64,000 bases of DNA from a virus, in IMG/VR virus record IMGVR_UViG_3300021961_000065, positions 10,814-74,813 of that record; one strand, 5' to 3'. Each line of letters begins with the position of its first letter. Positions within the stretch are counted from its first letter, which is position 1. Below the pieces are notes generated by a model that did no database searches, was not told the DNA's origin, and saw nothing but the letters and a program-made list of their open reading frames with translations. Shown piece by piece: positions 9,450 through 53,815 of this stretch. The position numbers and the translations under genes are program-made.

Positions 9450-10022
9450 TTATCCTAGAAATAAAACAGTTAAACCTGCTTCAGTTGGAGTAATATTAGT
9501 TCCTGAAGAAGTACCATCTCCTCCTACAAACATGGATAGTGTTTGACCTGCTGTTGCATTAACTAAACCACTAGAAGCTAAAGTAATTTTATCAGCTCCA
9601 TTAGTAGGTTTAGCAACAGTTGTTAATCGAGCTCCTACAGAACCATTTAAAGCATATTTAAAGTTATAAACTGAACCTGAAGCAATAGCTGCTGTTGTAA
9701 AGTTAATCCAGAAATCTACATAATAAGTACCTGCTTGATTAAGAGTAATGATACCACTTGCAGGAGTTGTAGTTAAAATAGACACATCACCTTGTGTCCA
9801 TTCTCCACTTGGATTAAGAAGTGAATAAGCAGAAGCACCTGCTAATGTATGAGCAGTAGCACCTGCTGAGATGTATAGATCTGCATGAGCTTTACCTGGA
9901 GGGTATGTCCATGCACCAGAACCTGATCCATTAGAAATATATACTTTACCACTTGTAGCAGCAGCTACACCCTTAGGCTCATGTATATCTGGATCTGTGA
10001 TAATGTTATGTTGTATAGTCAT
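9450..10022 (-). CDS. Virion structural protein (putative head fibre/decoration)
   Basis: HEPKG..GKVY.SNGSGSGAW N-terminus, beta-rich C-domain. Homologue at 52837-53412. Confidence 0.55.
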   Translation of the reverse strand: MTIQHNIITDPDIHEPKGVAAATSGKVYISNGSGSGAWTYPPGKAHADLYISAGATAHTLAGASAYSLLNPSGEWTQGDVSILTTTPASGIITLNQAGTYYVDFWINFTTAAIASGSVYNFKYALNGSVGARLTTVAKPTNGADKITLASSGLVNATAGQTLSMFVGGDGTSSGTNITPTEAGLTVLFLG

Positions 10023-10425
10023 TTAATATATATTCCTAAAAGATAAGGGAGGGTCCGAAGACCCTCATCCTTAATTAGTTTTTGTCGTAAACGTATTCAA
10101 CGACAAGTCGAGCTTTACCTGTAAGTAAATCGTCAACGTTAGGAGCAACTACAACTTCTCCTGCAGTAGCACCGATTGTTTTACCTACTAAAGCACCTGC
10201 ACCAGTAACAACGTTACCTGCAGTGCCAATAGCTGTTTGTGTAGCCTCATCAGCTTCCACCAAACCATCAGCATCGATAGCAACACCTGCAGAATTATAC
10301 AATCCAACAACTAAGTCTGTTGTAGTAGATGTAGAAGTAAATGCTACATCAACATATAACTTAGCTGAAACGATTGTTGCGTTTGCAGGAATAACATATT
10401 GTAAATTGCTAGTACCAGAAGCAGG
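9964..10425. repeat. 462-bp exact direct repeat, copy 1 (copy 2 at 53354-53815)
   Basis: Line-by-line comparison found no mismatch across this interval; offset 43,390 bp. Confidence 0.9.
10036..10073 (-). terminator. Intrinsic terminator after the capsid genes
   Basis: Minus strand GAGGGTC-TTCG-GACCCTC stem with extended TAAGG/CCTTA pairing, followed by TCTTTT. Confidence 0.75.
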
Positions 10426-18098: not shown

Positions 18099-18668
18099 TT
18101 AAAATTCTATCCATCCAGTTATAATATACTTGTCTCCACCAATAGGTGGGTTTCCTCTGTGTGTATGTGTAAAGGCTGCAGGAAATATTACTACATCTCC
18201 TTTACTTGGTTTGTATCTGTATTGTTGATAAAGAAATTCTGTTTCACCTGCTTCAAAGTCATCGTTAAGATAAGCAGTCCATACTAAAACTCTATTAGAT
18301 GAATCTCTATCTGTAGCTTCAGCATGCCAAACATGATACCCTTGACCTGGTTTAGTTAATTGTATCTTCATTGTATATGATTTATGTTGAGCTAATGTGT
18401 GTACAATATTATATTTTTTAGCATACTCACTATAACAATCTGACCAAAATACTTTATTAAACTCATTTATTAATTCAGGAGTCGTATGATGTAAAGGATA
18501 GCTAGGAAGAAAAGTAAATTGATCTTGTTTTTCTAATTTAGGAACTTTTTCTATACTTTGTCTATCTTGTGTAAATCCATTTGTATGTGCTATATTAAAA
18601 TAGTTTATTACTTTATTACAGAACTCATCACTTAATACATTTTTATAAACTTCTATAAAATTATCCAT
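18099..18668 (-). CDS. 2OG-Fe(II) oxygenase
   Basis: WHAE, YLND...GETEF, FPA.FTH.HRG and KYI.TGW motifs. Confidence 0.88.
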   Translation of the reverse strand: MDNFIEVYKNVLSDEFCNKVINYFNIAHTNGFTQDRQSIEKVPKLEKQDQFTFLPSYPLHHTTPELINEFNKVFWSDCYSEYAKKYNIVHTLAQHKSYTMKIQLTKPGQGYHVWHAEATDRDSSNRVLVWTAYLNDDFEAGETEFLYQQYRYKPSKGDVVIFPAAFTHTHRGNPPIGGDKYIITGWIEF

Positions 18669-18683
18669 GTTATGTTTTATCCT

Positions 18684-19103
18684 TTATATTAATTCATTTA
18701 CTATTAGTTGAGACCATTTGACTGCATCTTTTGTTTTAATTCTGTAGTCATAACTAATAGGATTACTAAATAAACTATTAGTATCTTTATATCTACTTTG
18801 ATTTATTGTATCCATCCATATTACAATATCAGCATTAAATATATTTCTAATTTCTTCAGTAGGTGCTACAAAATCTGTTATAGTATGACTATAATTATTA
18901 CTTATAGTTTTTAATCTAGTTGCTTGTCTAAGCCTTCCTTCATAACTAAAATCCCAATCATTACTTAAAGCTCTAACCTCATCTGCATTTATTCTAATAA
19001 AGTTTGTTAGTTTACCTAGTTCATTGGCTAATGTAGTTTTACCTGATCCTGGTAAACCCATTACTAATATCTTTAGTTTCTCCAAAACTCCATTCCTTGA
19101 CAT
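18684..19103 (-). CDS. Adenylylsulfate (APS) kinase-like P-loop protein
   Basis: GLPGSGKTT Walker A and NADEVR...DWDFS.EGR.RQA.R, resembling CysC. True start may be slightly downstream. Confidence 0.65.
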   Translation of the reverse strand: MSRNGVLEKLKILVMGLPGSGKTTLANELGKLTNFIRINADEVRALSNDWDFSYEGRLRQATRLKTISNNYSHTITDFVAPTEEIRNIFNADIVIWMDTINQSRYKDTNSLFSNPISYDYRIKTKDAVKWSQLIVNELI

Positions 19104-19798
19104 TTATCTATAATATCTTGAGTAGGAGTTGTTGTTGATTTACTTAATGTAGATCGTAAAGAATGTAAGTTTGCATCACCATAAGCCTCTTTATCTAATT
19201 CTTTATATGTTGATTTTATATTATTAAATGTATGTTCATAATAATTTTCATTTAAAAACTTATATATCTTTTGTAAAGTTTCTTTAGGTTTATTAATTAA
19301 ATTATTATACTCAACAATATGTATACAATCTTTATAATTATTAAAACCTATTTTTAAATTATCATAAGGATCTTGTAAAAGAATATCATCTTTAGTTAAT
19401 AAAAGATTACTATCTATATTAATTTTTGTATTTTTAATAGACATATAAATTTCAGATATATCTCTAACCATACATATTATCTTAGGTTTTATTTTAAAAT
19501 AATGTAAAATATCAGTAACTTTACCTGTCCAAACTCTATTCTTATCAAATATAACTTCTTGTGTTATATCAGAATAATAATATTTAATAAAGTCTCCTAT
19601 ATAACTTTCAACTTGAGTCACTTTAGGAAAAGCTTTAAATAAATCTAAATCATTAATTGTAGTAGCAATAGTTTCCATAATTTTAACTACAGGTGAACTT
19701 GGTCCTGAATAAAAATTAGGATTTTGATTTAGTATAGCAGAAAGTAATGTACTTCCTGATCTTGGTAATCCTGATATAAAATATAGTTTTTTTGTCAC
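19073..19798 (-). CDS. Sulfotransferase
   Basis: GLPRSGSTLL 5'-PSB loop, VRD...IYMS 3'-PB motif, VEY..L...P. Confidence 0.85.
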   Translation of the reverse strand: MTKKLYFISGLPRSGSTLLSAILNQNPNFYSGPSSPVVKIMETIATTINDLDLFKAFPKVTQVESYIGDFIKYYYSDITQEVIFDKNRVWTGKVTDILHYFKIKPKIICMVRDISEIYMSIKNTKINIDSNLLLTKDDILLQDPYDNLKIGFNNYKDCIHIVEYNNLINKPKETLQKIYKFLNENYYEHTFNNIKSTYKELDKEAYGDANLHSLRSTLSKSTTTPTQDIIDKCQGMEFWRN

Positions 19799-20895
19799 TT
19801 AAAGTAAGGACCTTCTAACCATGTTACACAACTATATCGTACTCCTTCTGTAACAGGTTCTACTCCATGTAACATATAACTAGGAAAAACTATTATAGTA
19901 CCTTTTTCTTGAGGCGGGTAAAACTTTTTATGTGTAGTTTGAATATAAAACTTACCACCTTTGTAGTCATCATTAAGAAAAGCTAATACTGTTAGTTTTC
20001 TAGTTTCGTTACTATGTTTATGTATTGTATCTACATGAGGATAATAACGTCCATCTTGTTTATAAATTAAAAATTCAGATTGGTTAGTATGTGTTACATT
20101 ATATTTCCACCAATAATTATTAGCATTTAAACCAGTAGCAGCTAATGTAGCACTAATACCTACATTAGGTTGTAATATAACTCTTTCAACATCTCTAATA
20201 TTTTTATCTAAATTATTATCACCTATATAAGCAGGTTCTTTTTTAATACTATCTTGACTATAAGTATTAATAAGATTTTGACAAAAACTATCTGTTATAT
20301 GATTCTTAAATATAGCACAGTCAGTTAATCTATTATTTATAACTGTAGAAGGTTTTGGTATTCCTAAAGATTCTCTGCTATCATACTTTTGATCTGCATG
20401 AGGACCATCTGCATCTACATAGTGTAAGAATACTTGAGCCTGCCACTGTCCCTCTGTATATTTGTTTCTCCAATGTTCTAAATCCATACCACGATAAAGA
20501 ACAGCATCTCCTACTTCCATATCTATTTTATTATGTTCCATATAAATAGACCAAGGTTTACCTTCAAATCCTAAAGTAAGAGTAGCTGATATTTCACAAG
20601 CAGGTCTATCTGTATGTTTTTTTAACTCATCATTAGGTTGATATAACCTAGCATAAGAATAAGTAGGATATAATTTTTTACCACTAGCTTTTTCAAAATA
20701 AGGTAATAAATCCTCAAGAAGCTCATCAAAGTTTTTTTGTCCATAGATACCATAAGATAATGGACATTGTTTATCTTTTGTAGCTTCACCTTTATTTACT
20801 AAATCTTTTAATAAATTAGTATATCGTTTACAAGTATTTCTATTAATAAATTCTTTTAAATGAACGTATCCATTTTTATCGAAATCGTTGGTCAC
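19795..20895 (-). CDS. Tandem two-domain 2OG-Fe(II) oxygenase
   Basis: Domain 1: HTDRPACEIS..HWR..QVFLHYV. Domain 2: HVD..RKLT..HGVEPVT.GVRYS.V.W. Confidence 0.85.
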   Translation of the reverse strand: MTNDFDKNGYVHLKEFINRNTCKRYTNLLKDLVNKGEATKDKQCPLSYGIYGQKNFDELLEDLLPYFEKASGKKLYPTYSYARLYQPNDELKKHTDRPACEISATLTLGFEGKPWSIYMEHNKIDMEVGDAVLYRGMDLEHWRNKYTEGQWQAQVFLHYVDADGPHADQKYDSRESLGIPKPSTVINNRLTDCAIFKNHITDSFCQNLINTYSQDSIKKEPAYIGDNNLDKNIRDVERVILQPNVGISATLAATGLNANNYWWKYNVTHTNQSEFLIYKQDGRYYPHVDTIHKHSNETRKLTVLAFLNDDYKGGKFYIQTTHKKFYPPQEKGTIIVFPSYMLHGVEPVTEGVRYSCVTWLEGPYFK

Positions 20896-20914
20896 GATTA
20901 TCCTTTCTAATTAT

Positions 20915-21223
20915 TTAGACTGAAACTTTAGTCCAGGTGTCTGTAGTCCAATCCCATTGATAGTCTTCTATTAAATTACCTTCTGCATCTTCTGCAAGAG
21001 CTCCTGCTGTACTTTGATGAACAGCATCAGGTAAAATTCTAAACGTGTTTGTAGTAGGATCATACCAATAATCATAACTTTCTATAGAATCAGGACAATC
21101 TTTCCATTCCATTGAAGAATGTACTTCAAATTCATTTCCAGAATCTACTACTTCTAAAACTCGATAGCCTCTATTATCTTGTCCTTTAGATTCATTTGTA
21201 TTAACTAATGCTTTTTTTGTCAT
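20915..21223 (-). CDS. Hypothetical protein (possible fibre chaperone)
   Basis: Acidic and Trp-rich, directly after the fibre gene. Confidence 0.45.
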   Translation of the reverse strand: MTKKALVNTNESKGQDNRGYRVLEVVDSGNEFEVHSSMEWKDCPDSIESYDYWYDPTTNTFRILPDAVHQSTAGALAEDAEGNLIEDYQWDWTTDTWTKVSV

Positions 21224-28221: not shown

Positions 28222-28717
28222 AGTACATAATATTATTAATGTGTGTATTACATGTATTACAAATACAAGCTAGTGTTGTAATTATAGAACCTGATGGTGA
28301 TGTAAAACAATGTTATATAGATTCATCAGGTATTATGATATGTATTTAAGGAGAGATTTATGTCATGTGATCCAAATAAAGAAGCTATACTAGAACAGAT
28401 GTATGAAGAGTGGTATGACTTTTACAAAGAAGAAGGTTTCATAGGTGAGCAGTTATGTATACTTGCAGAAGAAGCTGCTTTAAATCAATATCAATCAGGT
28501 GATTTTTACCAAGGAGATTATGATGTCGAGTAAATTTGTACGTTGGACTTTACTAGCTCAAACAGAAGATGGATTAGATTACGATGTGTCGAGCCACGTT
28601 CCAGTGGGCCTCGACAATCGTCTTAATGATTTTCTAGATGATCTAGAACAATACTGGGATGAGGAGGATCTTGATCCAATAGAATGGGAAGGAGAAGATG
28701 ATGCAAGGAGTAAATAG
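28215..28717 (+). CDS. Three short early ORFs (28215-28349 signal-peptide-like; 28360-28533 and ~28520-28717 acidic)
   Basis: Hand translation; AAGGAG RBS before 28360 and 28520. Confidence 0.5.
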
Positions 28718-29594
28718 TAAAAACATAGCTAAGATTATTACTGATCGAATCTTAGAAGAACTTAAGAAAGATCCAGGTCAATGGATTAAATCTTGGTCTG
28801 CTGCTAATCGTCCAGTTAATTTAGTAACAGGTCGTGAATACACAGGCTGTAATTGGCTATGGTTATCTATGATGCAAGGTCACGAAGGTAACGATACTAA
28901 TGAATGGTGTACTTATAACCAAGCTAAAGAATTAACAGGTCTTGACTATCCAATTAAGAAAGGTAGTAAAGGGCAACCAGTTATTCTTTACAAACCACAA
29001 AAGATTGCAACACTTGATAAAAAACAAAACAAAATGAAAGACAAAGTTGTTCCTTTAATGCGAGTGTTTCAGGTATTTAATCGTAGTCATATCATTGATT
29101 TACCACCACGAGAAATACCAAATGAAGAAGAAAACAAACTAGAAAAAGTAGAAGTGTTTGTTAATCATCACAAGTTAAACTTAAAGAATGGTTTTGATCA
29201 CGCTTGTTTTATACCAAGTAAAGATGAAATTCACATGCCATACATTACAAACTTTAAGTCAACAGAAGATTACTATGCTACGCTTCTACATGAAATGACA
29301 CACTGGACTGGTCATGAGAAACGACTTGATCGTAAACTTAAAACTAGTTATGGTACAGAAGCTTATGCTTTTGAAGAATTAGTTGCAGAGTTAGGTGCAG
29401 CTATGTTATGTAATCATCTTAATATTCAAGGTAAACTACAACACACAGAGTATATTGCTAGTTGGCTAAAGGTATTACAGAATGATGAAAAGGCTGTGTT
29501 ACGTGCATCAGCACAAGCACAAAAAGCATTTGATTATATTGTAGGAGTTACTAATGACAAAACAACAGCAAACGTGGTTAATGCACCTGCTTGA
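28698..29594 (+). CDS. ardC: ArdC-like antirestriction ssDNA-binding protein with zincin-like domain
   Basis: W.K.W..P.N..TGR.Y.G.N N-domain, YYATLLHE..HWTGH..RL.R, YAFEELVAELGA, YI.SWL..L. Confidence 0.88.
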   Translation: MMQGVNSKNIAKIITDRILEELKKDPGQWIKSWSAANRPVNLVTGREYTGCNWLWLSMMQGHEGNDTNEWCTYNQAKELTGLDYPIKKGSKGQPVILYKPQKIATLDKKQNKMKDKVVPLMRVFQVFNRSHIIDLPPREIPNEEENKLEKVEVFVNHHKLNLKNGFDHACFIPSKDEIHMPYITNFKSTEDYYATLLHEMTHWTGHEKRLDRKLKTSYGTEAYAFEELVAELGAAMLCNHLNIQGKLQHTEYIASWLKVLQNDEKAVLRASAQAQKAFDYIVGVTNDKTTANVVNAPA

Positions 29595-30273: not shown

Positions 30274-30477
30274 ATGAAAGCAGTTCCTATGAGATGTCTA
30301 GCTTGCAATAAAGAGCTCTCAGACTTCGAAGCTACAAGAAAATCTACTCAAACAGGTGAATATATAGACTTATGTAATACGTGTTATCGTACTATTAAAG
30401 ATGTAATATTGCCTCAAGAACGTGAAGACTTACGAGATGTAATAGAAGATGATGATGAAGAAAATGGGGAGTACTAA
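30274..30477 (+). CDS. Small zinc-finger protein
   Basis: RCLACN...DLCNTC with acidic tail. Confidence 0.7.
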   Translation: MKAVPMRCLACNKELSDFEATRKSTQTGEYIDLCNTCYRTIKDVILPQEREDLRDVIEDDDEENGEY

Positions 30478-30487
30478 ACTCCCCTTT
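30461..30487. terminator. Probable bidirectional terminator between the Zn-finger gene and pqqA
   Basis: AAAAT-GGGGAGT-ACTAA-ACTCCCC-TTT at the convergence point. Confidence 0.65.
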
Positions 30488-30491
30488 GATA

Positions 30492-30563
30492 TTACTTGTT
30501 ACATACGTACATAGTAACTTCAAAACCAAATCTCATTTCTGTTGCTGATGGTTTAGTCCACAT
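30492..30563 (-). CDS. pqqA: Pyrroloquinoline quinone precursor peptide PqqA (23 aa)
   Basis: Hand translation MWTKPSATEMRFGFEVTMYVCNK, with the conserved W..P....R.GFEVT.Y pattern (E-x3-Y). GGAG RBS 7 nt upstream. Confidence 0.95.
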   Translation of the reverse strand: MWTKPSATEMRFGFEVTMYVCNK

Positions 30564-30674
30564 AATGTTTCTCCATTTAGTTGATTAATATACTTTTTTA
30601 GTATATAATAATATTATACTATAAATACGATATAGTGTAATCAGTACGATCTTGATAAGGAGCTAAGTTAAATC

Positions 30675-31373
30675 ATGAGTGCTTTTTTACAGCATTTACC
30701 CTGTCCTAATTGTGGTAGTAAAGACAATCTAGGTGAGTATGAAGATCATTTCTTCTGCTTTGGATGTCGTTATCACAAACATAAATCAGACACAAAATCA
30801 TTAAGAAAACGAATAACTGTTAAACAAGAAACAGTGTATACTCCTGTCCAGGACATGGAGTTAACAGATGAACTACCTTCTGTTGCAAAACAATGGCTAT
30901 TGAAGTATGGCATTACAATGGAAGATGCTAAAGAATATAATTTACAATGGAATCCTAATATGAATATGCTAATGTTATTAAAAACAAAATACTATTGGCA
31001 AGCAAGATTATTTGATAAAGCTAAACCAAAGTATTTATCTAAAGGAAAGAAACCTGTACAAATATATGGATATGGTACAGAACGAGTTACACTATGTGAA
31101 GACATAATTTCTGCTATCAAGTTAGCTCGAGTCTCTCCTGAGATGTGTGCTTCTCCTCTTCTAGGAAGCACAATCTCTTTCGAGGCCCTTCGCTTTTATA
31201 AGAAAAAATATAACAGAATCACAATATGGCTTGATCGAGATAAAGCTAAAGAAGCAATAAAGATAAGTAAATTGTTTCAACAATATGGAACTAAGAGTGA
31301 TGTTATTATTACTCCTCTTGATCCAAAAGAATACAATAGAACGGAGCTTAGAGAATGGTTGAATTACAGATAA
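30675..31373 (+). CDS. DNA primase (Zn finger + TOPRIM)
   Basis: CPNCGS.D..CFGC, LCED..SA and WLD.D motifs. Confidence 0.88.
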   Translation: MSAFLQHLPCPNCGSKDNLGEYEDHFFCFGCRYHKHKSDTKSLRKRITVKQETVYTPVQDMELTDELPSVAKQWLLKYGITMEDAKEYNLQWNPNMNMLMLLKTKYYWQARLFDKAKPKYLSKGKKPVQIYGYGTERVTLCEDIISAIKLARVSPEMCASPLLGSTISFEALRFYKKKYNRITIWLDRDKAKEAIKISKLFQQYGTKSDVIITPLDPKEYNRTELREWLNYR

Positions 31374-32602
31374 TAAGATTATTCTGTGTAAATAAAGATG
31401 AGTATAGTCGTTACTATAAATACGTTGATACGACTTACATGAAAAACAATTATCCTTTGTTACATAAATTGTTTCAAATGGTATTTAGTTTCTATGATAA
31501 ATATGATAAAGATAACATTACACCTAATGAACTCTTTACAATGTATCAAGCTAACTATATTACAGATGAATCAGAACAAAAAGAAATAAAAGAACTTATT
31601 GATACCATCTTTGATTCTGAAGAAAACACAGCTATACGAGATTTATTACAGACACATAAAAGACGTGCTCTTGCAGGTAACCTTGCTAAAGTAGCTTTAG
31701 ATGTAGAAGAAGGTAAAGTAGAAGCTGAAAAACTACAGGAACTTTTTAGTGACTTTGAATTACAAGCAGTAAATGAACAAGAAATTAATGGCTGCACAGA
31801 TGATTTATCAGACTTATTACATCAACAATTTGATGAAGTGGGGCTTCGTTGGAGACTTAACTTCTTAAATAAATCATTAGGTAGTCTACGTCAAGGAGAC
31901 TTTGGCTTTATCTTTGCTAGACCTGAAACAGGTAAAACTACTTTCTTAGCTTCAGAAGTATCTAATATGATAAAATATACAGACAAAGAAATACATTGGT
32001 TTCATAACGAAGAGGGTGCACGTAAAGTGCAAACTCGAGTCTATCAAGCAGTGCTTGGAGTTACAACACAACAACTAAAGAAACACGAAGAACGTTGTAA
32101 ACAAAAGTATTATGAAGAAACATATAAAGATGGACAGAAAAGAATCTTTATACATGATGTTAATGAATCTTCACACATCAAAGTAATTGAAGGAATCTTA
32201 AAACAAAAGAACCCCGGGCTTATAATACTTGATCAAATTGATAAGATAAAAGGATTTAAAGCAGATCGTAATGATCTTGAATTAAAAGTATTATATCAAT
32301 GGGCTAGGGAACTTTGTAAAAAGTATGCTCCAGTTATTGCCGTCTCCCAAGCTAGTGGTGAGGCAGAGGGTGTACCATTTCTAACAATGGATATGGTAGA
32401 CTCATCCAAGACAGCCAAACAAGGAGAGGCTGATTGGATTCTAGGTATAGGTAAGGATAAAGATAATACCTCTCGTATAAGGTATCTAAATATCACTAAA
32501 AATAAGCTCCTTGGTGATAGCGATTCCTTACCTGCACTTAGACATGGTAGTGCTAGAGTACTAATTAAACCTGAGGTAGCTCAATATGAAGACATCGTTT
32601 AG
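31355..32602 (+). CDS. DnaB-like replicative helicase
   Basis: ARPETGKTT Walker A, IILDQ and SQ motifs. Confidence 0.9.
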   Translation: MVELQIIRLFCVNKDEYSRYYKYVDTTYMKNNYPLLHKLFQMVFSFYDKYDKDNITPNELFTMYQANYITDESEQKEIKELIDTIFDSEENTAIRDLLQTHKRRALAGNLAKVALDVEEGKVEAEKLQELFSDFELQAVNEQEINGCTDDLSDLLHQQFDEVGLRWRLNFLNKSLGSLRQGDFGFIFARPETGKTTFLASEVSNMIKYTDKEIHWFHNEEGARKVQTRVYQAVLGVTTQQLKKHEERCKQKYYEETYKDGQKRIFIHDVNESSHIKVIEGILKQKNPGLIILDQIDKIKGFKADRNDLELKVLYQWARELCKKYAPVIAVSQASGEAEGVPFLTMDMVDSSKTAKQGEADWILGIGKDKDNTSRIRYLNITKNKLLGDSDSLPALRHGSARVLIKPEVAQYEDIV

Positions 32603-32715: not shown

Positions 32716-32976
32716 ATGAGAAGACTGATGATAACGATCCATCGTGATTATGATGCAACAAATGATATAACTAATCCTACTATGAAAAAGATATATTCAT
32801 ATATGCAAAGAGGTAAAACATATACTCGTAAAGATATAGCAAAAGACCTGTCCCTACCTGTTCCTACAGTGACAGCTAGGGTTTCAGATCTTCTGATGAA
32901 ACATTATATAACAGAGACCCCTACTGTATGGGATGAAAAATCTAAAAGATATATAGGAGGCTTCCAAAGATTATGA
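32716..32976 (+). CDS. Winged-HTH DNA-binding protein
   Basis: TRKDIAKDLSLPVPTVTARVSDL. Confidence 0.7.
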   Translation: MRRLMITIHRDYDATNDITNPTMKKIYSYMQRGKTYTRKDIAKDLSLPVPTVTARVSDLLMKHYITETPTVWDEKSKRYIGGFQRL

Positions 32977-34127
32977 ATGTATTAACAATAGATGTAGAAA
33001 CTACCATATCAAATAAAGGTAATCCTTTTGATACAACTAATAAATTAGTATATGTAGGATGTAAAGATAACGAGCAACCTACTAAAGTATTTAGTATTGA
33101 ATACAATCAAGAACCTTATAAAGATAAACTTAATAAGATTCAAGCTATGATAAATGATGTTGATTGGTTAGTAGGTTTTAATATTAAATTTGATTTATCT
33201 TGGTTAAAAAGATATGGAATTAAATTTGATCACAAAAGAATATGGGATTGTCAGTTAGCTCACTTTATTATGACAGGACAAGAAAAACCATATCCTAGTT
33301 TAAATGGAGTCTGTGAACATCACGGACTTGAACAAAAGATAGATATTATTAAAGAGCAGTATTGGTCTAATGGCATTGACACTCCAAATATACCAGAAGA
33401 ATTATTACAAGACTATCTTAAAAAAGATGTAGACTTAACAAGAGAAGTTTATAAAAAACAAATGTATGTATTATATAAAGATACTAATCAAGCTAATCTT
33501 ATACAATTACATTTTAGAGATTTAGCAGTGCTTCAAGAAATGGAATACAATGGGATGTTATATGATCAACAAAGGAGTAAAATACTTGGTGATGAATTGG
33601 ATGAACAAATTGGGAAACTGGATAGACGACTGTACGATTTACATGGATTGGATTCTTTTAACCCTTCTAGCGTGGATCACCTTAATGCTTTCCTTTATGG
33701 TGGGAGGCTTAGCTTCCGTCGTAAAGTACCTGATGGTGTTTACAAGACGGGGGCTCGTAAAGGTGAACCAAAGGAAAAATGGGAAACGTATGAAGTAGAA
33801 TTACCACAACGTTGTAAACCTATTGCAGGATCTGAACTAAAAAAAGATGGATTATATTCAGTAGATGATAGTACAATTAAAAGATTAAAAGGAGCAAAAG
33901 ATATTCGTGATTTAATACTAACAAGAGCTACATTACAGAAACGACTTACAGCATACTATAGAGGCTTAGATGAACTTATCACAGAAAATAATTGGAAACA
34001 AAACAAACTACATGGAGTCCTCAACCAATGTGTTGCTAGAACAGGACGACTCTCAAGTAGTAAACCCAACTTACAAAACTTTGATTCAGAAATTAAAGGC
34101 TTGCTTTACAGTAGATATGAGTCATAG
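32973..34127 (+). CDS. Family A DNA polymerase, N-terminal part (3'-5' exonuclease and thumb)
   Basis: IDVET, GFNIKFD and Y...DV exonuclease motifs; ends just after TGRLSS.KPNLQN. Confidence 0.92.
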   Translation: MNVLTIDVETTISNKGNPFDTTNKLVYVGCKDNEQPTKVFSIEYNQEPYKDKLNKIQAMINDVDWLVGFNIKFDLSWLKRYGIKFDHKRIWDCQLAHFIMTGQEKPYPSLNGVCEHHGLEQKIDIIKEQYWSNGIDTPNIPEELLQDYLKKDVDLTREVYKKQMYVLYKDTNQANLIQLHFRDLAVLQEMEYNGMLYDQQRSKILGDELDEQIGKLDRRLYDLHGLDSFNPSSVDHLNAFLYGGRLSFRRKVPDGVYKTGARKGEPKEKWETYEVELPQRCKPIAGSELKKDGLYSVDDSTIKRLKGAKDIRDLILTRATLQKRLTAYYRGLDELITENNWKQNKLHGVLNQCVARTGRLSSSKPNLQNFDSEIKGLLYSRYES

Positions 34128-34374
34128 TAAAAAAGTAACAGTAGCTATTACAGGCATTGATGATTATTTTCGTAATAATTGTCCTCGCTCTGAAAGATTA
34201 AAAGATCTTTATGAACATATAGAACGCAAAGGATTAAATGTAGCCTGGGCAGAATATGTATCTAAAGATATAGAAGATCTTATTATGATAGAAGGACCTG
34301 AATTTTTACTTAAACATATGTCTGTTAGTGCTAAAGATAAACTAATAAAGTACATGAAAAAGAGGTATCTTTAA
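34117..34374 (+). CDS. Hypothetical protein between the two polymerase genes
   Basis: In-frame ATG at 34117 within track ORF 33970-34374; TAATG coupling to the next gene. Confidence 0.55.
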   Translation: MSHSKKVTVAITGIDDYFRNNCPRSERLKDLYEHIERKGLNVAWAEYVSKDIEDLIMIEGPEFLLKHMSVSAKDKLIKYMKKRYL

Positions 34375-35099
34375 TGTTATTACAAGCAGATGCAAAACAA
34401 CTAGAGTGGGTAGGTGCTGCTTATTTATCTCAAGATCCTGTAGCTATTAATGAAATATGGGGATCAGTAGATATGCACAGTGATAATCAAAAACGATTTG
34501 GTCTACCTAGTAGATTGATTGCTAAGACTTTCGTGTTTAGATTAATCTATGGAGGCAGTGCTTATAGTTATGCACATGATCCTAACTTTATGTCAATAGG
34601 TAGTGAAAAGTATTGGCAAACTATTATAGATAACTTTTATGATAAATATAAAAGATTAGGTGAATGGCATAAAGAAATCTATGAAGAAGCAGTTCGTGAA
34701 CGTAGATTAGTAATGCCAACAAATAGAGTCTATAACTTTGAATCTGAAGTTAAAGGCAATAAAGTATATTATCCACGTACTAAGATATTAAACTATCCTG
34801 TACAAGGATTAGGCGCAGATCTTATGGCGATTGCTCGTGTGTCGTTAATGACTAAACTACGTGAGATGAAAGACATAGTTATGGTTAATACAGTACATGA
34901 TTCAATAATACTTGATTTTAATTCAAAAGTATGGGATAATATACATATAGTCAATTTAGTTGACAAATGTTTCAATGAAGTTCCAGATAACTTTCACAAA
35001 TTATTTGGGAAAGAGTTTAACTTACCTATGAGAGTCGAGTGTCAAGTAGGACCCACATGGGGATCAATGGAGATAATAAATGCAGATAAACGTAATTGA
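34374..35099 (+). CDS. Family A DNA polymerase, C-terminal catalytic part
   Basis: Motif A DAKQLE, motif B R..AKT..F..IYG, NYPVQG, motif C VHDS. Confidence 0.92.
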   Translation: MLLQADAKQLEWVGAAYLSQDPVAINEIWGSVDMHSDNQKRFGLPSRLIAKTFVFRLIYGGSAYSYAHDPNFMSIGSEKYWQTIIDNFYDKYKRLGEWHKEIYEEAVRERRLVMPTNRVYNFESEVKGNKVYYPRTKILNYPVQGLGADLMAIARVSLMTKLREMKDIVMVNTVHDSIILDFNSKVWDNIHIVNLVDKCFNEVPDNFHKLFGKEFNLPMRVECQVGPTWGSMEIINADKRN

Positions 35100-52836: not shown

Positions 52837-53412
52837 CTAGTCTAAGAAGAGAGCTACTAAACCTGCTTCAGTTGGAGTAATATTCTCTCCTGAAGAAGTA
52901 CCATCTCCTCCTACGTGTATTGATAATAATTGACCTGCTGTTGCATTTACAGTGCCTGTAGAAGATAAAGTTAATTTATCAGCACCATTAGTAGGTTTAG
53001 CTACTGTACTTGTTCGAGTACTTGTTGTACCATCTAAAGCAAATTTAAAGTTATAAACAGATCCTGAAGCTATAGCTGTTGTTGTAAAGTTAATCCAAAA
53101 AGTAATTAAATAGTGACCTGCTTGATTAAGTGTAATAACTCCACTAGCAGGTGTTACAGTAAGAATATCTTCATTACCTGAAGCTGTCCATTCGGCACTT
53201 GGATTAAGAATTGTATAAGCAGAAGCTCCTGCTAAAGTATGTGTAGTTGTACCACTTGTAATATAAATTTCAGCATGAGGTTTACCAGGAGGATATTCCC
53301 ATGCACCTGATCCTGATCCATTAGAAATATATACTTTACCACTTGTAGCAGCCGCTACACCCTTAGGCTCATGTATATCTGGATCTGTGATAATGTTATG
53401 TTGTATAGTCAT
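52837..53412 (-). CDS. Virion structural protein (second homologue)
   Basis: Homologue of 9450-10022. Confidence 0.55.
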   Translation of the reverse strand: MTIQHNIITDPDIHEPKGVAAATSGKVYISNGSGSGAWEYPPGKPHAEIYITSGTTTHTLAGASAYTILNPSAEWTASGNEDILTVTPASGVITLNQAGHYLITFWINFTTTAIASGSVYNFKFALDGTTSTRTSTVAKPTNGADKLTLSSTGTVNATAGQLLSIHVGGDGTSSGENITPTEAGLVALFLD

Positions 53413-53815
53413 TTAATATATATTCCTAAAAGATAAGGGAGGGTCCGAAGACCCTCATCCTTAATTAGTTTTTGTCGTAAACGTATTCAACGACAAGTCG
53501 AGCTTTACCTGTAAGTAAATCGTCAACGTTAGGAGCAACTACAACTTCTCCTGCAGTAGCACCGATTGTTTTACCTACTAAAGCACCTGCACCAGTAACA
53601 ACGTTACCTGCAGTGCCAATAGCTGTTTGTGTAGCCTCATCAGCTTCCACCAAACCATCAGCATCGATAGCAACACCTGCAGAATTATACAATCCAACAA
53701 CTAAGTCTGTTGTAGTAGATGTAGAAGTAAATGCTACATCAACATATAACTTAGCTGAAACGATTGTTGCGTTTGCAGGAATAACATATTGTAAATTGCT
53801 AGTACCAGAAGCAGG
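53354..53815. repeat. 462-bp exact direct repeat, copy 2
   Basis: Identical to 9964-10425. Confidence 0.9.
53426..53463 (-). terminator. Intrinsic terminator after the capsid genes
   Basis: Identical to 10036-10073. Confidence 0.75.

What the first reader, a model, noticed from the sequence alone, without database searches (positions are those of the whole stretch)
30461..30620. Phage-encoded pqqA (PQQ precursor peptide) as a stand-alone antisense cassette in the replication arm
Seen: a 23-aa ORF at 30563-30492 (-), too short for the ORF track, MWTKPSATEMRFGFEVTMYVCNK. It has a GGAG RBS, an upstream TATAAT (30613-30618, - strand) and a shared bidirectional hairpin (30466-30484). It is the only credible gene opposing the direction of the 15-kb + arm. 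Established: PqqA is the ribosomal peptide whose Glu and Tyr (E-x3-Y) are cross-linked by PqqE/PqqD to make PQQ, the cofactor of MxaF/XoxF methanol dehydrogenases, and one peptide is consumed per PQQ. Inference: the phage supplies only the consumable substrate (no pqqB-E in the window) to sustain host PQQ-dependent oxidation during infection. The TEMRFGFEVTMY wording resembles Methylophilaceae PqqA as I recall it, suggesting an OM43/Methylopumilus-type host. pqq genes in methylotroph viruses may have been reported before, so novelty needs checking.
Basis: partly seen in the sequence, partly recalled or inferred. Interest (0 to 1): 0.9.

Follow-up and report, generated by a model that had tools for sequence, protein, structure and literature searches.

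The report
Phage-borne PQQ precursor gene pqqA
A 43-kb phage of marine methanol-eating bacteria carries its own intact 23-codon copy of pqqA, the small peptide the host uses up to make the cofactor PQQ; the gene is real and under selection, but viral pqqA has been reported before.

Summary
A 23-codon ORF at 30563-30492 (-) scores twice the curated cut-off of both PqqA models. It has a GGAG ribosome site, a sigma-70-like promoter and a bidirectional terminator, and lies antisense between a 67-aa ORF and the primase gene. The phage is a MEP401/402-type OM43 podophage (TerL 78%) with no pqqB-E, integrase or PQQ enzyme. The core EMRFGFEVTMY is the Methylophilaceae type. Sampled host genomes carry 3-7 mostly orphan pqqA copies and one pqqE.

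The same gene, mostly unannotated, is in every Methylophilales or Methylophilaceae phage record the GenBank search returned. It is also in at least 204 IMG/VR contigs, 203 of them intact. Selection is clear: a relative with only 50% primase identity keeps an identical peptide across 12 nucleotide changes.

Within this one phage lineage the gene sits at three different sites. It is an antisense island in 30% of viral loci, against 4% of other ORFs.

The best reading is an auxiliary gene that supplies the consumable PQQ precursor. Expression and effect are untested. Viral pqqA was published in 2020 (Lake Baikal) and 2026, and this scan has noted it many times on other DNA.

The parts
30492..30563 (-). 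pqqA coding sequence, 23 codons plus a TAA stop. The cross-linked Glu15 and Tyr19 lie in the E-V-T-M-Y motif.
   Evidence: Translation. PF08042 43.3 bits and TIGR02107 44.7 bits. The peptide is identical in the syntenic relative L015 despite 12 nucleotide differences.
30571..30574 (-). Shine-Dalgarno GGAG, 7 nt upstream of the ATG.
   Evidence: Sequence. An SD-like motif at -16..-4 is present in 115 of 115 distinct viral copies and 111 of 112 host copies. The stretch from the SD to the ATG is conserved between host and virus.
30613..30641 (-). Sigma-70-like promoter of the pqqA cassette (ATTACA-17-TATAAT).
   Evidence: 10 of 12 matches. TTACA-N17-TATAAT is conserved in relatives L015 and L315. 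This is a consensus match only; no transcript data exist.
30588..30606 (.). Perfect 7+7 palindrome ATATACT-N5-AGTATAT. It lies between the pqqA -10 box and the SD, and inside the spacer of the divergent primase promoter. It may be an operator or a weak 5'-UTR hairpin.
   Evidence: It is unique in the window, where 0.01 are expected by chance. It is conserved in L015 (6-nt spacer) and L315. It folds at only about -4.9 kcal/mol together with the rest of the leader. Its function is unknown.
30466..30484 (.). Bidirectional intrinsic terminator. It is shared by the leftward pqqA unit and the rightward early operon that ends with the 67-aa ORF.
   Evidence: both strands: 7-bp stem, 5 GC pairs, T-rich tails. 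(-13.3 and -12.6 kcal/mol). The identical hairpin is present in L315.
30581..30609 (+). Promoter-like site TTGATT-17-TATAAT that would restart rightward transcription into the primase, helicase and polymerase genes. It overlaps the pqqA promoter region back to back.
   Evidence: 10 of 12 matches. Consensus match only.
30274..30477 (+). 67-aa ORF, the last gene of the upstream rightward unit and the downstream neighbour of pqqA on the opposite strand.
   Evidence: weak match to phrog_10364. Its homologue directly abuts the primase gene in MEP402 and L054, where no pqqA is inserted.
30675..31373 (+). DNA primase gene, the upstream neighbour of pqqA on the opposite strand. It is followed by the DnaB-like helicase (31355-32602), a split PolA, a 5'-3' exonuclease and RNR.
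   Evidence: PHROG and Pfam matches.

Best explanation
This is a genuine, translated pqqA carried by a lytic-looking 43.4-kb MEP401/402-type podophage of OM43 or related Methylophilaceae. The captured unit is just the host ribosome-binding site plus 23 codons. In this phage it sits as a self-contained leftward transcription unit (sigma-70-like promoter, SD, CDS, intrinsic terminator) at the boundary between the early operon and the replication operon. After infection the host RNA polymerase and ribosomes would make the peptide. The host's own PqqD/PqqE/PqqB/PqqC would then convert it into PQQ, one peptide per cofactor. This would sustain or raise the supply of PQQ for the XoxF-type methanol dehydrogenase that powers the cell, and so phage production. 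What is shown: family membership, intactness, purifying selection, phage context, absence of pqqB-E in the phage, their presence in candidate hosts, and repeated independent placement. What is inferred: transcription, translation, processing by host enzymes, and any benefit to the phage.
For: Identity: PF08042 and TIGR02107 scores are twice the cut-off, over the full model length. Phage context: ArdC-like protein, primase, DnaB, PolA, exonuclease, RNR, major head protein, portal and TerL, with TerL 78% identical to MEP401/402. No PqqB-E homologue was found in the record or in 1.67 Mb of 204 pqqA-bearing IMG/VR loci. No PQQ dehydrogenase is in the record. Candidate hosts supply the rest. Ca. 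Methylopumilus has pqqBCDE without an adjacent pqqA, 3 orphan pqqA and XoxF. A 1.2-Mb marine MAG has 3 pqqA, pqqE and XoxF. M. flagellatus has 7 pqqA. Beck 2014 reports 3-12 pqqA per Methylophilaceae genome with a single pqqBCDEFG, which argues that precursor dosage matters. The two commonest viral peptides are identical to the two commonest host peptides. Selection: window versus L015 shows 12 nucleotide and 0 amino-acid differences in the same slot, while the neighbouring primase is 50% identical. pN/pS is 0.21 among the copies of six phage records from the tblastn search plus this window, a set that no DNA pattern selected, with the core E-M-R-F-G-F-E-V-T-M-Y invariant. Of 204 IMG/VR copies, 203 are intact 23-25-aa ORFs. 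Recurrence: the gene is in every Methylophilales or Methylophilaceae phage record returned (Venkman, MEP301, MEP401, MEP402, P19250A, four Melnitz records), which span siphovirus, podovirus and myovirus types. It has 82 distinct immediate contexts in 112 loci. It occupies three different sites within the MEP401-type lineage. Cassette signals.
Against: PQQ is a stable catalytic cofactor that turnover does not consume, so a need for new PQQ within one infection cycle is unproven. The host already has about 3 copies. The promoter call is a consensus match in 29-34% GC DNA, where such matches are common (10 found against 6 expected in the 1.2-kb scan). The IMG/VR set was collected with a pattern that fixed the core residues, so conservation of the core in that set is circular. 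Only the isolate set and the positions outside the pattern are unbiased.
Confidence: 0.7

Rival explanations
1. The peptide is made but serves another purpose than boosting PQQ. It might flood PqqD/PqqE as a regulator or decoy, signal through the pqq pathway, or benefit the host cell in a carrier state or pseudolysogeny rather than during lytic growth.
For: The benefit of extra PQQ within one lytic cycle is unproven. The conserved palindrome over the promoter region hints at regulated rather than constitutive expression. The gene is antisense or separately transcribed far more often than other phage ORFs.
Against: The viral peptides are the same as, or within 1-3 leader residues of, host substrates and keep Glu15 and Tyr19. 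A decoy would be expected to lose the reactive residues. No integrase was found in this record.
Confidence: 0.12
2. The 72-nt ORF matters at the DNA or RNA level: as a transcriptional insulator or convergent-transcription device at the early/replication operon boundary, or as an antisense RNA. Its coding capacity would be incidental.
For: It sits exactly at an operon boundary with a shared bidirectional terminator and overlapping divergent promoters.
Against: The substitution pattern is that of a protein-coding gene: 12 nucleotide changes, none altering the peptide, and pN/pS of 0.21. In MEP402 and L054 the same gene lies in sense orientation at other sites, while the boundary between the 67-aa ORF and primase is seamless. 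No Rfam family matches.
Confidence: 0.05
3. It is a phage attachment site or an integration-target copy. The phage would integrate into a host pqqA gene, much as phages use tRNA genes, and carry a copy to rebuild the gene.
For: Host pqqA is short, conserved, multi-copy and followed by a hairpin (115 of 128 host copies). These are features shared with popular integration targets.
Against: The 74.8-kb record has no tyrosine integrase, and the control genomes did ring. Similarity to host copies is 83-88%, spread evenly over SD plus CDS, with no exact core and no flank identity. The full ORF with its own SD is kept in 203 of 204 contigs. The gene is also in the 141-kb T4-like Melnitz phages. Only 1 of about 125 host pqqA loci has phage-like neighbours.
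Confidence: 0.03
4. It is a neutral, recently picked-up scrap of host DNA with no function in the phage.
For: Phages do pick up host fragments, and the unit is tiny.
Against: It is retained with an unchanged peptide across phages whose replication proteins are only 50-70% identical. It occurs in at least 204 contigs and in the siphovirus, podovirus and myovirus isolates. No flanking host sequence is co-transferred.
Confidence: 0.03

Closest known systems
Virus-encoded PqqA of Lake Baikal Methylophilaceae-infecting viral population VP_266 (Coutinho et al. 2020, Microbiome 8:163, PMC7678222; preprint 10.1101/2020.04.02.019802)
   Same: The same gene family on a viral genome predicted to infect Methylophilaceae. 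It was interpreted there as an auxiliary metabolic gene supporting PQQ-dependent methanol oxidation.
   Different: That report concerns freshwater metagenomic contigs, some of which also carry methanol dehydrogenase or radical-SAM genes. The case here is a MEP401/402-type phage that carries pqqA alone. The Baikal paper does not describe the antisense cassette or the multiple insertion sites, and does not say that all cultured isolates carry the gene.
Orphan (non-operon) pqqA copies of Methylophilaceae chromosomes (3-12 per genome; Beck et al. 2014, PMC4109929)
   Same: Same length, same core EMRFGFEVTMY, same SD-to-ATG region and often the identical peptide. They are stand-alone, with their own terminator hairpin and no adjacent pqqB.
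   Different: The window's copy is on a phage and flanked by phage genes, with promoter and terminator sequences that are not homologous to host flanks. It is antisense to both neighbours, an arrangement seen in 30% of viral copies.
Unannotated pqqA in cultured Methylophilales or Methylophilaceae phages: Venkman, MEP301, MEP401, MEP402, P19250A, Melnitz
   Same: Peptide identity is 73-96% with an invariant core. The copies in Venkman, MEP301 and the uncultured MW202481 are also antisense islands.
   Different: The nearest relatives, MEP401/402, carry it at another site, as the first gene of the leftward arm and in sense orientation. In GenBank these copies are unannotated, or a wrong-strand ORF is called over them. 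The isolate papers held in the library do not mention pqq as a phage gene.
Cyanophage psbA (D1 protein) and similar auxiliary genes that resupply a host component during infection
   Same: This comparison rests on established knowledge of cyanophage auxiliary genes and is an analogy only.
   Different: There is no sequence or structural relation. Here the product is a 23-aa RiPP precursor consumed stoichiometrically in cofactor synthesis, not a damaged protein subunit. Unlike psbA, expression and benefit have not been demonstrated.

Membership tests
PqqA (PF08042 / TIGR02107, PQQ precursor peptide) | Profile-HMM score above the curated cut-off over the full model | tested here: met
   PF08042: 43.3 bits against 21.1, model positions 1-19 of 19. 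TIGR02107 (equivalog): 44.7 bits against 20, positions 1-21 of 21. The six-frame search of the record found exactly one match.
PqqA (PF08042 / TIGR02107, PQQ precursor peptide) | Conserved Glu-X3-Tyr pair that is cross-linked to form PQQ | tested here: met
   E15-V-T-M-Y19 is present. It is invariant in the copies of six phage records (five cultured isolates and MW202481) plus this window, a set found by tblastn without any pattern constraint.
PqqA (PF08042 / TIGR02107, PQQ precursor peptide) | Short ribosomally translated ORF (about 20-40 aa) with start codon and ribosome-binding site | tested here: met
   23 codons, ATG, GGAG 7 nt upstream. An SD is present in 115 of 115 distinct viral copies. 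Translation itself was not observed.
PqqA (PF08042 / TIGR02107, PQQ precursor peptide) | Occurs with pqqB, pqqC, pqqD and pqqE, in the same operon or at least the same genome | tested here: not met
   No PqqB-E homologue is in the 74.8-kb record or in 204 pqqA-bearing viral loci. The partners are present in candidate hosts, where most pqqA copies are also orphans. This failure is what makes it a phage auxiliary gene and does not argue against the peptide family.
PqqA (PF08042 / TIGR02107, PQQ precursor peptide) | Bound by PqqD, cross-linked by PqqE and matured to PQQ | not testable with these tools
   The peptide is shorter than the 30-residue minimum of the complex predictor, so no job was sent. 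This needs biochemistry or genetics.
Viral auxiliary metabolic gene | Lies inside a bona fide viral genome with viral genes on both sides, and has a host homologue with a metabolic role | tested here: met
   Replication genes are on one side and early genes on the other, with the structural arm further out. TerL is 78% identical to MEP401/402. The host homologues are Methylophilaceae pqqA.
Viral auxiliary metabolic gene | Maintained by purifying selection in viruses | tested here: met
   12 nucleotide and 0 amino-acid differences against the syntenic L015. pN/pS is 0.21 in the isolate set. 203 of 204 copies are intact.
Viral auxiliary metabolic gene | Expressed during infection and alters host metabolism | not testable with these tools
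No transcriptome of an OM43 phage infection was found in the papers read.
Phage moron (self-contained transcription unit, variably present) | Own promoter and terminator, and variable presence or position among related phages | tested here: met
   Promoter-like site and bidirectional terminator. The slot is empty in MEP402 and L054, which carry the gene elsewhere. 30% of viral copies are antisense islands against 3.7% of other ORFs, odds ratio 11. Promoter activity was not measured.
attP / integration-target copy | Adjacent integrase and an exact identity core with the host target | tested here: not met
   No PF00589 match in the record, with controls positive. Identity to host copies is 83-88%, spread evenly over SD plus CDS only.

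The most novel reading that the evidence does not exclude
pqqA is a near-universal signature gene of phages that infect Methylophilaceae. It would be repeatedly and independently captured or relocated as an 84-nt unit of SD plus CDS: three sites within the MEP401-type lineage alone, and 82 immediate contexts in 112 loci. By contrast, the motif I recall (unverified) as the Pseudomonas/Acinetobacter type, RIGFEVTMY, is almost absent from viral contigs (2 against at least 204). This would mean that supply of the precursor peptide, rather than the pqq enzymes, limits methylotrophic energy metabolism in infected cells. The 23-codon ORF could then also serve as a host-prediction marker for methylotroph viruses that gene callers currently miss.
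Probability: 0.5. Interest if true: 0.6.

Novelty: new member of a known kind. Interest (0 to 1): 0.45.

Why it matters
OM43 and freshwater Methylophilaceae are major methanol and C1 oxidisers in coastal seas and lakes. Their phages appear to carry, almost without exception, the one consumable part of the PQQ pathway. That points to precursor-peptide supply as the weak point of methanol oxidation in infected cells. It also adds a cofactor-precursor case to the list of viral auxiliary genes. Practically, the gene is invisible to standard ORF callers: it is unannotated, or covered by a wrong-strand ORF, in the GenBank isolate records. Viral roles in C1 cycling are therefore under-counted, and a cheap host marker is being missed. 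The kind of gene itself is already published, so this window adds detail (cassette anatomy, site turnover within one lineage, prevalence) rather than a new principle.

Tried and rejected
- Megablast of 28-33 kb against GenBank phages found no match, so relatives had to be found at the protein level.
Degenerate DNA patterns were used instead, which fixes the core residues and so biases that set.
- Single-linkage clustering of everything within 3 kb chained 117 of 127 loci together through mosaic genes and was uninformative. It was replaced by families of the immediate neighbours.
- The first orientation count (45 of 110 antisense) included ORFs that overlap pqqA itself. The stricter recount gives 54 of 182, and that is the figure to use.
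- Idea: host orphan pqqA copies are prophage-borne. Rejected: apparent hits in 54 host loci were to pqqA itself, and only L230 has many phage-like neighbours.
- The attP idea was rejected.
- A search for a T7-type RNA polymerase (PF00940) found nothing, but no control genome rang either, so this is uninformative.
- The Rfam scan of the cassette gave only a chance-level match elsewhere. The window has no tRNAs.
- An exact look-up of the peptide found it only on 3 unnamed JGI contigs and gave no host clue.
- No complex prediction of PqqA with PqqD was attempted, because the peptide is below the tool's 30-residue minimum.
- No pqqA tree was built, because 69 nt is too short and too saturated to count transfers.

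Full report
**1. The observation**

The minus-strand ORF 30563..30492 is there as described. It has an ATG, 23 codons and a TAA stop, with an in-frame stop seven codons upstream, so there is no alternative start. GGAG lies at 30574-30571, seven bases before the ATG.

The consensus scan finds ATTACA-17-TATAAT at 30641-30613 on the minus strand (10 of 12 matches). It also finds a 7-bp, 5-GC hairpin at 30466-30484, scored as a terminator on both strands; two terminator-like sites were found in 1.2 kb where shuffles give 0.4. The hairpin folds at -13.3 kcal/mol on the pqqA strand (z = -4.6) and -12.6 kcal/mol on the plus strand.

Pfam PqqA scores 43.3 bits (cut-off 21.1). The NCBIfam equivalog TIGR02107 scores 44.7 bits (cut-off 20). 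Both matches cover the full model. A six-frame search of the whole record finds this one match only.

**2. What carries it**

The window is bases 10814-74813 of a 74,813-bp IMG/VR virus record. Around the ORF lie an ArdC-like anti-restriction protein, several small ORFs, a 67-aa ORF (30274-30477), DNA primase (30675-31373), a DnaB-like helicase, a split family-A polymerase, a 5'-3' exonuclease and a class II RNR. All are on the plus strand. The minus-strand arm holds the major head protein, portal, TerL and tail fibre genes.

TerL is 78% identical to the OM43 podophages MEP401 and MEP402 (Zobellviridae). The record has no tyrosine integrase, no PQQ-dependent dehydrogenase and no PqqB-E homologue.

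The record is about 1.7 genome lengths of two related strains. Homologous blocks recur 43.4-44.0 kb apart at 66-80% nucleotide identity. The simplest reading is a complete genome of about 43.4 kb, which contains pqqA, assembled into a sister strain through that identical block.

**3. Host type**

The rows with a specific label name Methylophilaceae genera (Methylotenera, Methylophilus, Methylovorus, Methylobacillus, Ca. Methylopumilus, Novimethylophilus, Pseudomethylobacillus), apart from one Acidovorax MAG. The remaining rows are labelled only Burkholderiales, Betaproteobacteria, Nitrosomonadales or Pseudomonadota.

These hosts have several pqqA copies, most of them orphans:
- Ca. Methylopumilus universalis has three, none next to its pqqBCDE.
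- M. flagellatus has seven.
- A 2.0-Mb Methylophilaceae genome has four.
- A 1.2-Mb Tara Oceans MAG has three, plus pqqE and a XoxF-type dehydrogenase.

Beck et al. 2014 report 3-12 pqqA copies and a single pqqBCDEFG per Methylophilaceae genome.

**4. Relatives in other phages**

A tblastn of the peptide against 50,697 GenBank phage records returns every Methylophilales or Methylophilaceae phage record:
- Venkman, 96% identity.
- MEP401, MEP402, MEP301 and P19250A, 87%.
- Four Melnitz records, 73%.
- One uncultured spring-water podovirus, 91%.

In these records the gene is unannotated, or a wrong-strand ORF is called over it. The isolate papers held in the library do not mention it.

Of these, 203 have an intact 23-25-aa ORF; the exception is cut by the end of the locus. 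None has PqqB-E in 1.67 Mb. The two commonest viral peptides are identical to the two commonest host peptides.

As a rough control I scanned for RIGFEVTMY, the motif I recall (not verified here) as the Pseudomonas/Acinetobacter type. It occurs in only 2 IMG/VR contigs, and its longer form in none.

**5. Selection**

In the copies of six phage records from the tblastn search plus this window, a set that no pattern constrained, pS is 0.54 and pN is 0.11, a ratio of 0.21. All replacements fall in leader positions 4, 6 and 8 or in the four C-terminal residues.

The cleanest test is L015. It has the same slot between the 67-aa ORF and primase. Its primase is only 50% identical and its helicase 57% identical. 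Its pqqA differs at 12 of 72 nucleotides and at none of 23 residues.

Similarity to host copies (83-88%) and to other viral copies (up to 94%) covers only the SD plus CDS, about 84 nt. The flanks are unrelated. The stretch from SD to ATG is conserved between hosts and viruses.

**6. Anatomy and mobility**

Here the cassette occupies a transcription-unit boundary. The rightward early unit ends at the shared hairpin. A plus-strand promoter-like site (30581-30609) restarts transcription into primase. The pqqA promoter lies back to back with it.

Between the pqqA -10 box and the SD sits a perfect palindrome, ATATACT-N5-AGTATAT. It is unique in the window, where 0.01 are expected by chance, and it is conserved in L015 and L315. 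Its role is unexplained.

Within the MEP401-type lineage the gene is found at three sites:
- Antisense between the 67-aa ORF and primase (window; L315 at 85-92% protein identity; L015).
- As the first gene of the leftward arm, 7 nt upstream of gp69, in MEP402, where the 67-aa homologue gp10 directly abuts primase gp11.
- In sense orientation, about 0.8 kb after the RNR gene, in the 43.9-kb contig behind L054, where the primase slot is again closed.

Across viral loci there are 82 different pairs of immediate neighbour families in 112 loci. pqqA is antisense to both neighbours in 54 of 182 loci (30%), against 3.7% of all ORFs of 60 aa or more and 7% of ORFs of 60-100 aa in the same loci. The odds ratio is 11 and Fisher p is 3e-28, though the loci are not phylogenetically independent. 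This is the behaviour of a moron-like, separately transcribed add-on that is repeatedly gained or moved.

**7. Mechanism**

Established knowledge: PqqA is the ribosomal precursor whose Glu and Tyr are cross-linked by the radical-SAM enzyme PqqE with the chaperone PqqD, and then processed by PqqB and PqqC. One peptide is consumed per PQQ. PQQ is the cofactor of MxaF/XoxF methanol dehydrogenases.

Inference: the phage supplies only this consumable, from a host-type promoter, and relies on host enzymes. This sustains or raises PQQ synthesis while host gene expression declines. The multi-copy state of pqqA in hosts supports the idea that precursor dosage limits flux.

Weak points: PQQ is not consumed in catalysis, the host already has several copies, and no expression or PQQ data exist.

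Rivals considered: another role for the peptide (0.12), an RNA- or DNA-level role (0.05), an attP-like copy (0.03) and neutral hitch-hiking (0.03). The last three are contradicted by the codon-level selection, the absence of an integrase or an exact identity core, and the wide retention of the gene. Host orphan copies are not generally prophage-borne.

**8. Novelty**

Viral PqqA was reported in a Lake Baikal Methylophilaceae-virus population and read there as an auxiliary metabolic gene (Coutinho et al. 2020). Virus-encoded pqqA is listed again in a 2026 reservoir study. This scan has also noted phage pqqA many times on other DNA, with readings that agree with mine.

I did not find the following in the held literature:
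- The gene is in every cultured Methylophilales phage record returned.
- The lower bound of 204 IMG/VR contigs.
- The antisense-island bias.
- The three insertion sites within one lineage.

I therefore class it as a new member of a known kind, of moderate interest.

Noticed in passing
window 9964-10425 = 53354-53815; whole record: The 74.8-kb record is about 1.7 genome lengths of two related strains. Homologous blocks lie 43.4-44.0 kb apart at 66-80% nucleotide identity. One exact 462-bp block has an offset of 43,390 bp. This is most simply a complete genome of about 43.4 kb assembled into a sister strain through the identical block, so CheckV's '100% complete, linear' label hides a chimera.
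   Followed up: partly
window 30588-30606: A perfect palindrome ATATACT-N5-AGTATAT sits between the pqqA -10 box and the SD, inside the spacer of the divergent primase promoter. It is unique in the window (0.01 expected) and conserved in relatives L015 and L315. It may be an operator; its function is unknown.
   Followed up: partly
window 32973-34127 and 34374-35099: The family-A DNA polymerase is split into two ORFs: exonuclease plus the N-terminal part of the polymerase domain, and the C-terminal part of the polymerase domain. A gap of about 250 nt holding a small ORF separates them. The same split is seen in relatives L315, L015 and L054.
   Followed up: no
window 19795-20895 (-) and neighbours 18099-21223: A 366-aa protein matches PHROGs annotated as 2OG-Fe(II) oxygenase and 'ferrochelatase'. 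It lies in a block of auxiliary-looking genes between the tail-fibre genes and the lysis and terminase region, and may be another host-modifying cassette.
   Followed up: no
window 28698-29594 (+): An ArdC-like anti-restriction protein (ArdC N-terminal domain plus a zincin-like metallopeptidase domain) lies in the early arm.
   Followed up: no
GenBank MZ577095 (L006 2461-2556) and MW202481 (L007 2067-2195): In Melnitz-1 and in the Manatee Spring podovirus, the annotated 'hypothetical protein' over the pqqA locus is called on the wrong strand. In Venkman, MEP301, MEP401/402 and P19250A nothing is annotated there. In Melnitz the gene lies just upstream of a tRNA-Leu gene.
   Followed up: partly
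L230 (genome contigs locus): This is the only one of about 125 host pqqA loci whose neighbours match many phage proteins from pqqA-bearing viral contigs (15 bins). It is probably a prophage or a phage contig binned into a MAG.
   Followed up: no
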